A stretch of 64,000 nucleotides of DNA, taken from NCBI RefSeq assembly GCF_022846255.1, contig NZ_AP025682.1; one strand, written 5' to 3'. Positions 1 through 6,503 of this stretch are shown here, one piece after another (position 1 is the stretch's first letter; every line of letters begins with the position of its first letter). A model generated the notes under the pieces. The model was not told where the DNA came from and searched no databases. It saw only the letters and a list, made by a program, of their open reading frames with translations. The stretch is from Escherichia coli (GTDB taxonomy: Bacteria > Pseudomonadota > Gammaproteobacteria > Enterobacterales > Enterobacteriaceae). The position numbers were made by a program, and so were the translations under genes.

Positions 1-159
1 CTCACCGCTGCCAATCAGTGCTCCCAGCCCCGCCATCAGCACCGTACCGGGTAGAATCAAACCGACCAGCGCCAGCGACTCCAGAAAGGCCACCAATAAC
101 ACCGCCATCAATGAATACACGGTAGATTGGGTAATAAAGTGTTCCAGCAATGCTTGCAT
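1..159 (-). CDS. yabI: YabI (DedA-family inner membrane protein), 5' portion only; gene continues beyond window start
   Basis: Minus-strand reading from ATG (rc of cat at 157-159) gives MQALLEHFITQSTVYSLMAVLLVAFLESLALVGLILPG..., matching recalled E. coli YabI N-terminus; 85 bp from native araC stop as in K-12. Confidence 0.85.
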   Translation of the reverse strand, partial: MQALLEHFITQSTVYSLMAVLLVAFLESLALVGLILPGTVLMAGLGALIGSGE

Positions 160-244
160 AATGTGCCTGTCAAATGGACGAAGCAGGGATTCTGCAAACC
201 CTATGCTACTCCGTCAAGCCGTCAATTATCTGATTCGTTACCAA

Positions 245-294
245 TTATGACAACTTGACGGCTACATCATTCACTTTTTCTTCACAACCGGCAC
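245..294 (-). pseudogene. araC: Displaced araC 3' remnant: last codons (..AGCEEKVNDVAVKLS) plus native TAA stop, separated from the araC body by an insertion
   Basis: rc of 245-294 = gtgccggttgtgaagaaaaagtgaatgatgtagccgtcaagttgtcataa, identical to the araC 3' end as recalled from K-12/pBAD; no upstream in-frame continuation. Confidence 0.8.
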
Positions 295-313
295 AAAAGA
301 CACCCTCTGCCTA

Positions 314-736
314 TCATTCGATAGTCTCAAAATATTCCACCTGCAGAGAATCACGGTGCTCAATGATGCAATAACGCTGGAAATTATTTGCATAATCACT
401 TTTATCATGAAAAAACCATATACAATCGTTTTGTAGACTCGGTCCCATTCTTTTCAAAAAATCTATTAGCTTTGCTTTCTGAAGAAAAATGTTATCTATA
501 TTTCGCCATGTAACAATCACTCTTGTTTGCATATCATCAACATTATAGTAATAGCTATACTCGGCTACGTTTGATATGTTTGGCAAATTTCGCAAACTCT
601 CTGGCGTATAAAGGAAAAATGGGGAAAGTTCATGCTGTGTATAGTGATGTTCCTTTGACATCAATGAGATATAAGCATAGAAAAATATAAAGAATAAAAC
701 TAAAAATGATAATAAAATATAAATATATTTTGACAT
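314..736 (-). CDS. Hypothetical protein, 140 aa, with N-terminal hydrophobic transmembrane/signal-anchor segment; candidate immunity or accessory membrane protein
   Basis: ORF track; N-terminus MSKYIYILLSFLVLFFIFFYAYISL is a clear hydrophobic helix; ATG lies 6 bp after stop of upstream ORF (operon-like); no homolog recognised. Confidence 0.6.
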   Translation of the reverse strand: MSKYIYILLSFLVLFFIFFYAYISLMSKEHHYTQHELSPFFLYTPESLRNLPNISNVAEYSYYYNVDDMQTRVIVTWRNIDNIFLQKAKLIDFLKRMGPSLQNDCIWFFHDKSDYANNFQRYCIIEHRDSLQVEYFETIE

Positions 737-742
737 CTCTAC

Positions 743-1594
743 TCACGACCTGTGCGGATAATGAGGGTTTAAGAAAAGAAAAAGCGGTCTTTCAAAGGGA
801 GATTCTGAAAACTTTATAGCTCCCGAACTTGATAATGAACTATACAACTCATGATTTATTCTGTTTTTATCTTTATAATAATTAGTAACAGGTCTATTAT
901 TATATTGATTATATAACAATGTTGAAAAAGACTCATCTAATGGCTTTATATAATTTAACCATTCTGGAAGCTTCTTTTTTATTAGTTGATTTTTTTTAAA
1001 AGGAGGATGGGTTGTAAATAAGAATGGCGTAAACTCAGTATTTTTAAAATTCCCTGGCGCTCCATATGTATCCCATATTTGTAAGGCTTTTGTGTAAGAT
1101 AAAGGTTTTGCCAATAAAAGTGGATCGGGGCCTGTTCCAAATACACGATAAAAACCAATCAAGTCTGAGACTAAATCTTCTGCACTAAATCCGCTATCAG
1201 TATACCAGTTAAAAATAAATGAGTTTTGCCATGCTTCAAACCTCTTCGCAGTTCCATACATTAACGTTAAGGCAACTCTTGCTTTAAGAGTGGGTGAAAG
1301 ACATGAACGAACCATAACCTTCGTATAAACACCGGTATGAAATGTAAGATCTACTCCTAATATTTTTTTCCGAATTCCCATTTCCTGATGATAATCAACA
1401 GGAAAATACCAATCATGAAATTCATCGTAATATGTTGAAAAATGTTCTTGCTCCAATTTTCTTTTTAATATTCTGGCATCTTGTCCCTGAGCATGCCCCA
1501 AATCGATCCAACCTAACTCTTCGGTATAAACTAATCCATACTTTTTCGTTGTTGCAAATATTCCATCAGTAATATCGTTACGTTTTCTCATCAC
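743..1594 (-). CDS. Hypothetical protein ~282 aa (likely true start ATG at 1591 preceded by GAGGGGAG Shine-Dalgarno); no signal peptide; family not recognised
   Basis: ORF track (283 aa from GTG at 1594, ATG one codon downstream); rc upstream reads ...ttgaggggagattgtgatgaga; AT-rich codon usage atypical for E. coli core genes. Confidence 0.6.
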   Translation of the reverse strand: MMRKRNDITDGIFATTKKYGLVYTEELGWIDLGHAQGQDARILKRKLEQEHFSTYYDEFHDWYFPVDYHQEMGIRKKILGVDLTFHTGVYTKVMVRSCLSPTLKARVALTLMYGTAKRFEAWQNSFIFNWYTDSGFSAEDLVSDLIGFYRVFGTGPDPLLLAKPLSYTKALQIWDTYGAPGNFKNTEFTPFLFTTHPPFKKNQLIKKKLPEWLNYIKPLDESFSTLLYNQYNNRPVTNYYKDKNRINHELYSSLSSSGAIKFSESPFERPLFLFLNPHYPHRS

Positions 1595-2071
1595 AATCTC
1601 CCCTCAAAAAAAACGTATAGCAAATAATATCAATAAGGAAAAATATTATTTTTCAATATTTTTTTGTATACAATTCATTTTATGAATGAATTTACAAAGA
1701 TAGCTGCGCCTGATGCCGCTACACTTTTGCCAGACCATGTTCTCCTCTGAGGGAGTAACTGGCGTTTTTCATAGAATGCCGTACTTTTTTCAACAACTGC
1801 CACATCGAACGGCATTTATGGTGGCGTGAAGTGCCTGCCATAACCGCTCAATGTGGTGTTCCTACGATGAACAAACCGCTTGATATATTCTCCTGATGCA
1901 ACCGGACAATATGTTCATGATGGGTATCCCGATACATAAGCCTTCGTTTTATTTTTACAAAAAGAAATCGTTGTCGATATTTTATCAAGAAAAAAAATAA
2001 TTCAGGTAAAACGATTCAACTAAAAATAACTAAAATTAATCCCCCGTGAAATATATAAATAACGTCAGATG

Positions 2072-2104
2072 AAGAAAGCAAGGGGGTTCCCCCCCTTCTT
2101 TCTT
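2072..2104 (-). terminator. GC-rich imperfect inverted repeat (aagaaag..ggggg tt ccccccc..ctttctt) immediately 3' of the new araC stop; possible bidirectional terminator or insertion end structure
   Basis: Seen in sequence: gaagaaagcaagggggttcccccccttctttctt; flanked by T-rich tracts. Confidence 0.35.
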
Positions 2105-2105
2105 A

Positions 2106-2951
2106 TTATTCACAACCTGCCCTAAACTCGCTCGGACTCGCCCCGGTGCATTTTTTAAATACTCGCGAGAAATAGAGTTGATCATCAAAACCGACATTGC
2201 GACCGACGGTGGCGATAGGCATCCGGGTGGTGCTCAAAAGCAGCTTCGCCTGACTGATGCGCTGGTCCTCGCGCCAGCTTAATACGCTAATCCCTAACTG
2301 CTGGCGGAACAAATGCGACAGACGCGACGGCGACAGGCAGACATGCTGTGCGACGCTGGCGATATCAAAATTACTGTCTGCCAGGTGATCGCTGATGTAC
2401 TGACAAGCCTCGCGTACCCGATTATCCATCGGTGGATGGAGCGACTCGTTAATCGCTTCCATGCGCCGCAGTAACAATTGCTCAAGCAGATTTATCGCCA
2501 GCAATTCCGAATAGCGCCCTTCCCCTTGTCCGGCATTAATGATTTGCCCAAACAGGTCGCTGAAATGCGGCTGGTGCGCTTCATCCGGGCGAAAGAAACC
2601 GGTATTGGCAAATATCGACGGCCAGTTAAGCCATTCATGCCAGTAGGCGCGCGGACGAAAGTAAACCCACTGGTGATACCATTCGTGAGCCTCCGGATGA
2701 CGACCGTAGTGATGAATCTCTCCAGGCGGGAACAGCAAAATATCACCCGGTCGGCAGACAAATTCTCGTCCCTGATTTTTCACCACCCCCTGGCCGCGTA
2801 TGGTGAGATTGAGAATATAACCTTTCATTCCCAGCGGTCGGTCGATAAAAAAATCGAGATAACCGTTGGCCTCAATCGGCGTTAAACCCGCCACCAGATG
2901 GGCGTTAAACGAGTATCCCGGCAGCAGGGGATCATTTTGCGCTTCAGCCAT
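2106..2951 (-). CDS. araC: AraC arabinose regulator, C-terminally truncated (281 aa; ends ..[12 protein letters not shown] instead of ..AGCEEKVNDVAVKLS)
   Basis: ORF track translation from [23 protein letters not shown]... matches AraC; stop TAA at 2106-2108 is supplied by the inserted sequence. Confidence 0.93.
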
Positions 2952-4990
<2,039 letters not shown>

Positions 4991-5000
4991 GGACACGACA

Positions 5001-6503
5001 ATGACGATTTTTGATAATTATGAAGTGTGGTTTGTAATTGGCAGCCAGCATCTTTACGGCCCGGAGACTCTGCGCCAGGTGACGCAACATGCGGAACACG
5101 TTGTTAATGCACTGAATACAGAAGCGAAGTTGCCCTGCAAACTGGTGCTGAAACCGCTGGGCACCACGCCGGATGAAATCACCGCTATTTGCCGCGACGC
5201 GAATTACGACGATCGTTGCGCCGGGCTGGTAGTGTGGCTGCACACTTTCTCCCCGGCCAAAATGTGGATCAACGGCCTGACCATGCTCAACAAACCGTTG
5301 CTGCAATTCCACACCCAGTTCAACGCGGCGCTGCCGTGGGACAGCATCGACATGGACTTTATGAACCTGAACCAGACCGCGCATGGCGGTCGCGAGTTCG
5401 GCTTCATCGGCGCGCGTATGCGTCAACAACATGCCGTCGTTACCGGTCACTGGCAGGATAAACAAGCACATGAGCGTATCGGCTCCTGGATGCGTCAGGC
5501 GGTCTCTAAACAGGATACCCGTCATCTGAAAGTCTGCCGTTTTGGCGATAACATGCGTGAAGTAGCGGTCACCGATGGCGATAAAGTTGCCGCACAGATC
5601 AAGTTCGGTTTCTCCGTCAATACCTGGGCGGTTGGCGATCTGGTGCAGGTGGTGAACTCCATCAGCGACGGCGATGTTAACGCGCTGGTCGATGAGTACG
5701 AAAGCTGCTACACCATGACACCTGCCACACAAATCCACGGCGAAAAACGACAGAACGTGCTGGAAGCGGCGCGTATTGAGCTGGGGATGAAGCGTTTCCT
5801 GGAACAAGGTGGCTTCCACGCTTTCACTACTACCTTTGAAGATTTGCACGGCCTGAAACAGCTTCCGGGTCTGGCCGTACAGCGTCTGATGCAGCAGGGC
5901 TACGGCTTTGCGGGCGAAGGCGACTGGAAAACTGCCGCCCTGCTTCGCATCATGAAGGTGATGTCAACCGGTCTGCAGGGCGGCACCTCCTTTATGGAGG
6001 ACTACACCTATCACTTCGAGAAAGGTAATGACCTGGTACTCGGCTCCCATATGCTGGAAGTCTGTCCGTCGATCGCTGTGGAAGAGAAACCGATCCTCGA
6101 CGTTCAGCATCTCGGTATTGGCGGTAAAGACGATCCTGCCCGCCTGATCTTCAACACTCAAACCGGTCCAGCCATTGTCGCCAGCCTGATTGATCTCGGC
6201 GATCGTTACCGTCTGCTGGTTAACTGCATCGACACGGTGAAAACACCGCACTCCCTGCCGAAACTGCCGGTGGCGAATGCGCTGTGGAAAGCGCAACCGG
6301 ATCTACCAACCGCTTCCGAAGCGTGGATCCTTGCTGGTGGCGCGCACCATACCGTCTTCAGCCATGCGCTGAACCTCAACGATATGCGCCAGTTTGCCGA
6401 GATGCACGACATTGAAATCACGGTGATTGATAACGACACCCGCCTGCCAGCGTTTAAAGACGCGCTGCGCTGGAACGAAGTGTATTACGGGTTTCGTCGC
6501 TAA
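5001..6503 (+). CDS. araA: L-arabinose isomerase
   Basis: 500 aa [30 protein letters not shown]..., matches AraA. Confidence 0.96.

What the first reader, a model, noticed from the sequence alone, without database searches (positions are those of the whole stretch)
1595..2105. About 500 bp non-coding leader inside the insertion with a compositionally distinct core and inverted repeats
Between the large ORF start and the araC junction there is no ORF of 60 aa or more on either strand. The segment ~1700-1945 is noticeably more GC-rich than the rest of the insert and contains an 8-bp inverted repeat (aatgccgt ... acggcatt, ~1787-1820). A GC-rich palindrome (2072-2104) sits right at the araC boundary. 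This could hold the module's promoter, a decayed gene remnant or a small RNA; the boundary hairpin could terminate araC transcription or be part of the element end.
Basis: seen in the sequence. Interest (0 to 1): 0.35.

Follow-up and report, generated by a model that had tools for sequence, protein, structure and literature searches.

The report
Patchwork of gene remnants beside araC
The 511-base "leader" is not one functional unit but ordinary E. coli genomic scar tissue: a dead insertion-sequence end and a truncated sugar-kinase gene start with its upstream DNA, lying between the araC terminator hairpin and the short native upstream region of a two-gene module.

Summary
Window 1595-2105 has no ORF of 60 aa or more. 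Its core (1700-1945) is 47% GC between flanks of 19-25% GC, and a strong hairpin abuts araC.

It is a mosaic, not a leader:
- **1595-1698:** the module's own AT-rich upstream region. It carries a promoter-like block (TTGnnn-17-TATAA) conserved in 7 relatives and degraded in E. coli (TTTTCC-17-TATACG).
- **1699-1897:** the last 199 bp of an IS630-family element (ISEc33-like). It keeps one terminal repeat and the transposase C-terminus, frameshifted by a 13-bp deletion. RefSeq already annotates it as a pseudogene.
- **1898-1937:** the first 13 codons of a DeoR-PfkB kinase gene that is intact in 581 other E. coli genomes.
- **1938-2071:** that gene's upstream DNA.
- **2072-2104:** a hairpin of -21 kcal/mol one base past the araC stop codon, most likely the araC terminator.

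The 8-bp inverted repeat lies inside the transposase remnant. It was partly created by the deletion and is within chance (P about 0.1). Rfam finds nothing.

Citrobacter and Salmonella carry the same module at the same site behind a leader of 97-167 bp with none of these inserts.

Verdict: ordinary and essentially already annotated. Interest is low.

The parts
1595..1698 (-). Native AT-rich (19% GC) upstream region of the two-gene module. It holds a Shine-Dalgarno sequence GAGGGGAG (1605-1598), a -10-like TATACG (1619-1614), a -35-like TTTTCC (1642-1637) and an A/T palindrome AATTCATT-N5-AATGAATT (1672-1692).
   Evidence: Aligns with the upstream regions of the homologous module in 7 other Enterobacterales. 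Those carry a conserved TTGnnn-17-TATAA(A/T) block 19-25 nt before the ATG. Salmonella's copy is flagged as a 10/12 sigma-70-like site. No site in E. coli 1595-1700 passes the scan.
1699..1897 (-). 3'-terminal 199 bp of an IS630-family insertion sequence (ISEc33-like). It comprises the terminal inverted repeat GATAGCTGCGCC (1699-1710), the transposase stop codon (1719-1721) and about the last 63 codons, with a 13-bp deletion and frameshift near 1815/1816.
   Evidence: RefSeq annotates an 'IS630 family transposase' pseudogene at window 1719-1858. Nucleotide identity is 72-80% to ISEc33 and other IS630-family elements. tblastn with the ISEc33 transposase C-terminus gives E = 2e-14. ISEc33 itself is a DDE_3 transposase.
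1775..1816 (.).
   Evidence: Intact relatives have only ATGCCGT...ACGGCAC. The right arm ACGGCATT is completed by the 13-bp deletion junction. It is within chance with weak folding z-scores.
1898..1937 (-). 5' remnant of a DeoR-HTH/PfkB kinase gene (labelled RikA in one record): start codon at 1937-1935 and the first 13 codons. Fused to the IS remnant it forms a 29-codon chimeric ORF (1937-1848).
   Evidence: 51 bp are 90% identical to the start of the intact gene in strain 4/4. Ten of 13 residues are identical (MYRDTHHEHIVRL against MYRDTRREYIVRL). The intact protein has HTH_DeoR and PfkB domains.
1938..2071 (-). Upstream intergenic DNA of the truncated kinase gene (25% GC). It may retain that gene's promoter, pointing toward the module.
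   Evidence: Aligns with the PfkB-araC intergenic region of strain 4/4 at 83% identity, with three deletions of 7, 26 and 23 bp.
2072..2104 (.). GC-rich palindrome and hairpin one base downstream of the araC stop codon; a probable bidirectional intrinsic terminator of araC.
   Evidence: -21 kcal/mol with z = -4.2. Flagged as terminator-like on both strands. The strain E57 variant is a near-perfect palindrome at -25.6 kcal/mol. Unrelated hairpins sit at the same place after araC in Salmonella (-19.1, z = -3.2) and Citrobacter (-14.2).
2106..2951 (-). araC, the 281-aa form that ends ...FRAGCE.
   Evidence: RefSeq annotation. The gene is 96.7% identical to K-12 araC and 98.2% to strain 4/4.
743..1591 (-). 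First gene of the module, 282 aa: a DUF4056 / CapCone-like protein, probably a toxin or effector.
   Evidence: Weak Pfam DUF4056 hit. Homologues are annotated DUF4056 or carry PF13265. Invariant GWIDxGH and TDSGFSxED motifs match the family description in 10.1101/2025.01.14.632903.
314..736 (-). Second gene of the module, 140 aa with a hydrophobic N-terminus; probably the partner or immunity protein.
   Evidence: It follows the 283-aa-type gene in all nine loci inspected. It matches no family.
245..298 (-). Orphan copy of the araC 3' end plus the K-12-type 11-codon tail. Positions 281-298 form a direct repeat (15 of 18) with 2109-2126 at the real araC end.
   Evidence: Alignments with K-12, Salmonella and Citrobacter.

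Best explanation
Window 1595-2105 is a composite scar, not a regulatory leader. Read in the direction of araC and the module (minus strand), the order is as follows. The araC stop codon comes first, followed by a strong hairpin (2104-2072) that most likely terminates araC transcription and insulates the convergent direction. Next is the orphaned upstream region (2071-1938) and the first 13 codons (1937-1898) of a DeoR-PfkB kinase gene. In 581 other E. coli genomes that gene heads a five-gene kinase/DHDPS-family/tricarboxylate-transporter island at this same site. It is joined directly to the last 199 bp of an IS630-family insertion sequence (1897-1699), which ends in its terminal inverted repeat. 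Last come the module's own 104-bp AT-rich upstream region (1698-1595) with a promoter-like block and a ribosome-binding site. The simplest history (inferred) is an ancestor with the order araC, kinase island, IS630 element, module, yabI. A single deletion from kinase codon 13 into the IS then removed the island and most of the IS. The GC-rich core is therefore dead coding DNA, and its 8-bp inverted repeat is an accident of that decay. Only the hairpin and the proximal 50-100 bp are likely to function. What is shown: the homologies, the junctions and the distribution. What is inferred: terminator activity, promoter activity and the order of events.
For: - **IS remnant.** PGAP annotates the pseudogene. 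The segment is 72-80% identical in nucleotides to intact IS630-family elements, up to their terminal repeat (T)AAATAGCTGCGCC. tblastn with the transposase C-terminus gives E = 2e-14, split across two frames by a 13-bp deletion.
- **Kinase remnant and upstream DNA.** This part is collinear with strain 4/4 from PfkB codon 13 to the araC stop. The island occurs in 581 genomes.
- **An independent parallel.** In NZ_OZ038806.1 an IS1-associated deletion leaves 22 bp of the same kinase gene.
- **Related loci lack the core.** The same module lies between araC and yabI in Citrobacter portucalensis, C. farmeri and Salmonella, with leaders of 166, 97 and 167 bp. BLAST of the E. coli leader against four related module loci (L007, L010, L012, L013) finds no similarity to 1699-2071.
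- **Promoter-like block.** It is conserved with an exact 17-bp spacer in 7 relatives.
- **Hairpin.** It is strong here, and non-homologous hairpins occupy the same position in other genera.
- **No RNA family.** Nothing in Rfam scores better than E = 0.9.
Against: No transcript data were available, so terminator and promoter activity are untested. The hairpin's U-tract is interrupted (CUUUCUUCAU). The conserved -10-like box in relatives is TATAAA, which lacks the usual final T, and the E. coli copy (TATACG) is worse, so the native promoter may be inactive here. No genome with the proposed intermediate (island + intact IS + module) was found among 5426 E. coli genomes. The flank of the IS end is AA rather than the TA expected for IS630 insertion. 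The 477-nt region folds somewhat better than shuffles (z = -3.1 and -2.1), mostly because of A/T palindromes.
Confidence: 0.87

Rival explanations
1. The orphaned kinase-gene promoter (1938-2071) still fires and reads through the remnants into the module. In that case 1595 to about 1950 acts as a long accidental 5' UTR that compensates for the module's degraded native promoter.
For: The kinase upstream region, its Shine-Dalgarno-like GAAGG and its ATG are retained and point toward the module. No terminator-like site on the minus strand lies between 2071 and 1595. The E. coli copy of the native promoter-like block has lost the conserved G of TTG and the AA of TATAA.
Against: The scan finds no minus-strand sigma-70-like site in 1938-2071. 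The remnant has three deletions and only 83% identity to the intact island's upstream region, so its promoter may be destroyed. There is no expression data.
Confidence: 0.12
2. The segment encodes a structured cis-regulatory leader or a small RNA.
For: It is non-coding, 98-100% conserved in 486 genomes, and folds with z = -3.1 on the minus strand.
Against: Nothing in Rfam reaches a gathering score; the best hit is E = 0.9. The core is demonstrably decayed protein-coding DNA from two unrelated genes. It is absent from homologous module loci. The conservation only reflects the recent common origin of the insert, which is 0.5-1% diverged where flanking core genes are 2.7-5.9% diverged.
Confidence: 0.03
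3. The boundary palindrome is the end of a mobile element or a recombination site rather than a terminator.
For: It lies within about 5-35 bp of the right-hand junction of the insertion relative to K-12.
Against: There is no second copy or inverted partner in the 64-kb window. Its right arm is shared with the module-less kinase island of strain 4/4. The junction is instead marked by an 18-bp direct repeat of the araC end. No recombinase gene is present.
Confidence: 0.03

Closest known systems
IS630-family insertion sequences (ISEc33 and relatives; DDE_3 transposase, terminal inverted repeats, TA target duplication)
   Same: 1699-1897 matches the transposase 3' end and the terminal repeat of ISEc33-like elements at 72-80% nucleotide identity. 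The conceptual C-terminus ...CRSMWQLLKKVRH...AKV* is conserved.
   Different: Only about 17% of the element is left. It has one end only, is frameshifted by a 13-bp deletion, has no close intact relative in the collections searched (best 80%), and is flanked by AA rather than TA. It cannot transpose.
DeoR-PfkB kinase / DHDPS-family / tripartite tricarboxylate transporter island between araC and yabI (strain 4/4 type; kinase labelled RikA in one record)
   Same: 1898-2105 is collinear with that island's kinase start, upstream region and junction with the 281-aa araC.
   Different: Only 13 codons of the kinase remain. The upstream region is 83% identical with three deletions, whereas 579 of the 581 island copies are at least 99% identical to the strain 4/4 copy used as query.
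Rho-independent (intrinsic), bidirectional terminators at gene 3' ends
   Same: A GC-rich 14-15-bp stem one base after the araC stop, flanked by A-rich and T-rich arms. It is flagged on both strands.
   Different: The U-tract is interrupted by C residues. Termination has not been measured.
IS-associated deletion scars in E. coli accessory loci
   Same: A truncated IS abuts a truncated gene at a flexible locus. An IS1-associated deletion in the same island provides a direct parallel.
   Different: Here the deletion endpoint lies inside the IS rather than at its end, so illegitimate recombination is more likely than transposase-mediated adjacent deletion.

Membership tests
IS630 family insertion sequence | Homology to an IS630-family (DDE_3) transposase | tested here: met
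   tblastn with the ISEc33 transposase gives E = 2e-14 over the last ~30 codons in one frame, and HIERLWQALH matches in a second frame. Nucleotide identity is 72-80%. PGAP annotates a pseudogene. ISEc33 itself matches DDE_3 at E = 1.4e-24.
IS630 family insertion sequence | Terminal inverted repeats at both ends | tested here: not met
   One end is present (GATAGCTGCGCC at 1699-1710, 11 of 12 matching AATAGCTGCGCC of relatives). The other end is deleted. It is therefore a remnant, not an element.
IS630 family insertion sequence | TA target-site duplication | tested here: inconclusive
   The flank is AA (1697-1698) where three relatives have TA. Only one flank exists.
IS630 family insertion sequence | Intact transposase ORF with the DDE triad | tested here: not met
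   Only about 63 C-terminal codons remain, frameshifted and with in-frame stops. Pfam finds no DDE_3 in the fragments.
Any Rfam RNA family (sRNA, riboswitch, leader) | Covariance-model score at or above the family's gathering threshold | tested here: not met
   The best hit within 1595-2105 is manA-II at 22.7 bits against a gathering score of 100, E = 0.9. All other hits have E of 1.7 or more.
Intrinsic (rho-independent) terminator | Stable GC-rich stem-loop immediately downstream of a stop codon | tested here: met
   -21 kcal/mol, z = -4.2, one base after the araC stop.
Intrinsic (rho-independent) terminator | U-rich tract directly after the stem | tested here: inconclusive
   The tails are GCUUUCUUCA (araC strand) and CUUUCUUAUU (other strand). 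They pass the scan's rule of 5 T in 8 but are interrupted.
Intrinsic (rho-independent) terminator | Transcript 3' ends at the site | not testable with these tools
   This needs Term-seq or 3'-RACE.
Sigma-70 promoter of the module | -35 and -10 hexamers with a 16-18 bp spacer, conserved among orthologous loci | tested here: inconclusive
   Seven relatives have TTGnnn-17-TATAA(A/T), and Salmonella's copy scores 10/12. E. coli has TTTTCC-17-TATACG (3/6 and 4/6) and is not flagged.
DeoR-PfkB kinase gene | HTH_DeoR and PfkB domains | tested here: not met
   The intact homologue has both. The window keeps only codons 1-13, so it is a remnant, not a gene.

The most novel reading that the evidence does not exclude
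The junk is co-opted. The orphaned kinase promoter transcribes through the kinase/IS630 remnants, creating a roughly 340-nt accidental 5' UTR that now drives, or regulates through its structure, the DUF4056-type toxin/immunity module, whose native promoter has decayed in E. coli. As a side product it may express a 29-aa chimeric micro-ORF (1937-1848).
Probability: 0.1. Interest if true: 0.3.

Novelty: already known. Interest (0 to 1): 0.1.

Why it matters
It matters little as a feature. The segment is a worked example of how a 'compositionally distinct non-coding core' can be explained by remnants of known genes, and the IS630 pseudogene is already in RefSeq annotation. The useful results are negative and contextual. 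There is no hidden RNA or novel regulatory element here. The module's real control region is at most about 100 bp. The araC-yabI gap is a flexible site that has held at least three states: empty (K-12), the kinase/transporter island, and the DUF4056 module. That context also suggests where K-12 AraC's 11 extra C-terminal residues came from.

Tried and rejected
- **Rfam.** An E-value scan of 1-3400 gave only chance-level hits.
- **Pfam on the core.** The conceptual frames gave no DDE_3 because the fragments are too short, plus one spurious weak hit.
- **NCBIfam and PADLOC on the two module proteins.** Nothing.
- **Promoter and terminator scan.** No minus-strand promoter-like site in 1595-2105. 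Only the boundary hairpin and a weak plus-strand site at 1760-1781 inside the IS remnant were flagged.
- **The 8-bp inverted repeat as a functional hairpin.** Rejected. It is within chance, folds weakly, is absent from intact IS relatives and is partly created by the deletion.
- **The hairpin as a repeated element or terminal repeat.** Rejected. It is unique in the window.
- **A closer intact IS relative.** Searches of E. coli genomes and plasmids gave 80% identity at best.
- **An intermediate genome carrying both island and module.** None found. The module and the mosaic leader each occur as one full-length copy in the same number of genomes, 486.
- **Literature.** A search on araC + yabI found nothing on this locus.
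- **A coordinate slip of my own.** I first placed the IS end at 1691. Re-indexing puts it at 1699.

Full report
**Setting**

The window is E. coli. Positions 1595-2105 are 100% identical to the type strain ATCC 11775 and to many human, animal and environmental isolates, including Nissle 1917.

The local gene order on the plus strand is:
- the yabI start (to about 170);
- an orphan copy of the araC 3' end with a K-12-type tail (245-298);
- a 140-aa ORF (314-736, minus strand);
- a 282-aa ORF (743-1591, minus strand);
- the segment in question (1595-2105);
- araC (2106-2951, minus strand, 281 aa);
- araBAD and polB.

**Observation check**

All the descriptive claims hold.
- **ORFs.** None of 60 aa or more overlaps the segment.
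- **Composition.** GC rises from 0.19 (1601-1700) to 0.48 (1701-1900) and falls back to 0.24 (1951-2050). By segment it is 19.2%, 47.7%, 45% and 25.4%.
- **Inverted repeat.** Simulations give at least one such repeat in 9-15% of sequences of the same composition, and the local fold is unremarkable (z = -1.7 and -1.3).
- **Palindrome.** The 2072-2104 palindrome is strong (-21 kcal/mol, z = -4.2) and unique in the window.

**What the segment is made of**

*IS630-family remnant, 1699-1897.* RefSeq annotates an [quoted passage not shown] pseudogene at positions equal to window 1719-1858, in two independent assemblies.

I confirmed and extended this annotation.
- Positions 1699-1897 align at 72-80% identity with the 3' ends of ISEc33 and other IS630-family elements on E. 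coli, E. marmotae and E. fergusonii plasmids.
- The match runs right up to their terminal sequence TA|AATAGCTGCGCC. The window has AA|GATAGCTGCGCC.
- tblastn with the ISEc33 transposase matches its C-terminus (...CRSMWQLLKKVRH...AKV*, E = 2e-14).
- A second frame carries HIERLWQALH. The two frames are separated by a 13-bp deletion near 1815/1816.
- ISEc33 itself is a DDE_3 transposase.

So the sharp left edge of the GC-rich core at about 1700 is the outer end of a dead IS.

*The inverted repeat.* It sits inside this transposase remnant. Intact relatives read ATGCCGT...ACGGCAC, and the deletion junction supplies the final TT that makes it 8 bp. It is an accident of decay.

*Kinase gene remnant and its upstream DNA, 1898-2105.* A sensitive BLAST of the core also hit the first 38 bp of a "PfkB family carbohydrate kinase" gene in other E. 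coli at 90% identity.

In strain 4/4 that gene encodes 410 aa with HTH_DeoR and PfkB domains. It heads a five-gene cluster of kinase, DHDPS-family enzyme and tripartite tricarboxylate transporter. The cluster fills the araC-yabI gap, again next to a 281-aa araC.

Window 1898-2105 is collinear with that strain from kinase codon 13, through the start codon (1937-1935) and the upstream region, to the araC stop. Identity is 83%, with deletions of 7, 26 and 23 bp. Ten of the 13 retained residues are identical.

The island is present in 581 of 5426 genomes, and 579 of the copies are at least 99% identical to the strain 4/4 query.

The IS/kinase junction lies at 1897|1898-1900.

*The module's own upstream region, 1595-1698.* Homologues of the 282-aa protein (61-70% identity) are always followed by a 140-aa partner. 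The pair lies:
- between araC (281 aa) and yabI in Citrobacter portucalensis, C. farmeri and Salmonella enterica, after leaders of 166, 97 and 167 bp;
- between araD and polB in two Trabulsiella species, in Enterobacter sp. ENT03 and in a further locus (L017) whose protein NCBI labels 'MULTISPECIES: Enterobacterales'.

BLAST of the E. coli leader against four of these loci (L007, L010, L012, L013) finds nothing resembling 1699-2071.

Aligning the roughly 110 bp upstream of the start codons shows a conserved block. It reads TTG(T/C)nn, exactly 17 nt, then TATAA(A/T), and ends 19-25 nt before the ATG, followed by a Shine-Dalgarno sequence. Salmonella's copy is flagged by the scan as a 10/12 sigma-70-like site.

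In E. coli the aligned positions read TTTTCC (1642-1637) and TATACG (1619-1614). Both conserved cores are altered, and the scan flags nothing on the minus strand here.

The module's control region is therefore the proximal 50-100 bp, and it looks weakened in E. coli. That it is a promoter is an inference from conservation, not a demonstration.

*The hairpin, 2072-2104.*
- It begins one base after the araC stop and is flagged as terminator-like on both strands.
- Its right arm is shared with strain 4/4, where the homologous sequence folds poorly (-9.5 kcal/mol, z = -0.15).
- In strain E57, four clustered substitutions (2087, 2088, 2095, 2097) turn it into a near-perfect palindrome of -25.6 kcal/mol.
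- Non-homologous hairpins occupy the same position after araC in Salmonella (-19.1, z = -3.2) and Citrobacter (-14.2).

A position that is conserved while the sequence turns over is what one expects of a terminator. The U-tract is imperfect, and activity is untested. It has no inverted partner, so it is not an element terminus.

**Most likely history (inferred)**

On the minus strand the order is: araC, hairpin, kinase upstream DNA, kinase codons 1-13, IS internal sequence to its end, module.

The missing kinase codons and the rest of the island must once have lain between the kinase start and the IS. The missing IS 5' part must have lain on the same side.

A single deletion in an ancestor ordered araC, island, IS630 element, module, yabI therefore explains the junction. 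No such intermediate exists among the 5426 genomes. The module and the mosaic leader each occur once, at full length, in the same number of genomes, 486.

An IS1-associated deletion in the same island in NZ_OZ038806.1 leaves 22 bp of the kinase gene. This shows that such events recur at this locus.

Between the window and strain E57, the insert is only 0.5-1% diverged while flanking araC, araB and yabI are 2.7-5.9% diverged. The high conservation of the segment therefore reflects recent shared ancestry, not constraint.

**RNA hypotheses**

Rfam gives nothing better than E = 0.9. The 477-nt region without the hairpin folds with z = -3.1 (minus strand) and -2.1 (plus strand). This mild signal is largely due to short A/T palindromes in 1605-1692 (7 observed against 1 expected, P = 0.02).

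The core derives from two decayed protein-coding genes and is absent from related loci. I therefore give a dedicated RNA about 3%.

One non-exclusive alternative cannot be excluded without transcript data: the orphan kinase promoter may still read through into the module. I give this about 10-12%.

**Comparison with known systems, and novelty**

Each component belongs to a well-known kind: an IS630-family pseudogene (already annotated), a truncated accessory gene, an intrinsic-terminator-like hairpin and a short promoter region. As a remnant, the IS piece fails the tests for a functional element: it has one end only, no intact transposase and an unclear TA duplication. Nothing here is new in kind.

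**Side observations**

- **The module.** The 282-aa protein is a DUF4056 / "CapCone" Lipocone-type protein. Supporting this are a weak Pfam hit, DUF4056-annotated homologues and invariant GWIDxGH and TDSGFSxED motifs that match the published family signature. A DUF4056 bicistron was proposed as a T6SS effector candidate in Salmonella, and in Rahnella a module homologue lies about 2 kb from an Hcp gene. The pair is probably a toxin/immunity module.
- **The direct repeat and K-12 AraC.** The module is flanked by an 18-bp direct repeat of the araC end (281-298 against 2109-2126). The sequence after the left copy is the native araC-yabI spacer. K-12's 292-aa AraC continues into exactly this sequence, with GAA where Salmonella's orphan copy keeps TAA. 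This suggests that the K-12 form arose by repeat-mediated loss of the insert, or by stop-codon loss.

**Verdict**

The segment is an ordinary mosaic scar of low interest.

Noticed in passing
window 314-1591 (minus strand); related loci L007, L010, L012, L013, L015-L018: The two-gene module is a 282-aa DUF4056/CapCone-like protein with invariant GWIDxGH and TDSGFSxED motifs, followed by a 140-aa partner with a hydrophobic N-terminus. The pair is always together. It lies in the ara region at two different sites: araC-yabI in E. coli, Citrobacter and Salmonella, and araD-polB in Trabulsiella and Enterobacter. In Rahnella it lies about 2 kb from a T6SS Hcp gene. It is probably a toxin/immunity (effector) pair.
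   Followed up: partly
window 245-298 and 2109-2126; K-12 locus L006 1725-1870: The insertion is flanked by an 18-bp direct repeat of the araC 3' end (15 of 18 identical). The orphan left copy continues into the sequence that encodes K-12 AraC's extra 11 residues (EKVNDVAVKLS). Salmonella's orphan copy keeps TAA where E. coli has GAA. The 292-aa K-12 AraC therefore looks like a product of repeat-mediated loss of the insert and/or stop-codon loss from an ancestral 281-aa form.
   Followed up: partly
window 2087-2097 against L002 3487-3503 (strain E57): Four substitutions clustered within 11 bp convert the imperfect hairpin into a near-perfect 15-bp-stem palindrome (-25.6 kcal/mol), in a region otherwise about 1% diverged. 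This looks like a single templated (quasipalindrome-correcting) mutation rather than four independent changes.
   Followed up: partly
window 1614-1642 (minus strand): Seven relatives share TTGnnn-17-TATAA(A/T) upstream of the module. The E. coli copy reads TTTTCC-17-TATACG, so both conserved cores are mutated and the native promoter may be weakened or dead in E. coli.
   Followed up: partly
window 1672-1692: An A/T palindrome, AATTCATT-N5-AATGAATT, lies about 30 bp upstream of the -35-like box. An ATGAAT/CAAT-like motif is partly conserved at the aligned position in relatives and could be a regulator binding site.
   Followed up: no
L004 (strain 4/4) 683-6261; L014 (NZ_OZ038806.1): An alternative occupant of the araC-yabI gap is found in 581 of 5426 E. 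coli genomes (including ST131 and O127:H6 strains). It is a five-gene DeoR-PfkB kinase / DHDPS-family / tripartite tricarboxylate transporter island that replaces everything from the araC stop to the yabI start. One genome has an IS1-associated internal deletion of it.
   Followed up: partly
window 293 to about 1990 against the flanks: Between the window and strain E57, the insert is 0.5-1% diverged while flanking yabI, araC and araB are 2.7-5.9% diverged. This suggests that the insert spread among lineages by recombination more recently than the flanks diverged.
   Followed up: no
window 1848-1937 (minus strand): A 29-codon chimeric ORF (MYRDTHHEHIVRLHQENISSGLFIVGTPH*) is formed by fusion of the kinase start to out-of-frame IS sequence. 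It retains the kinase gene's start codon and Shine-Dalgarno-like GAAGG.
   Followed up: no
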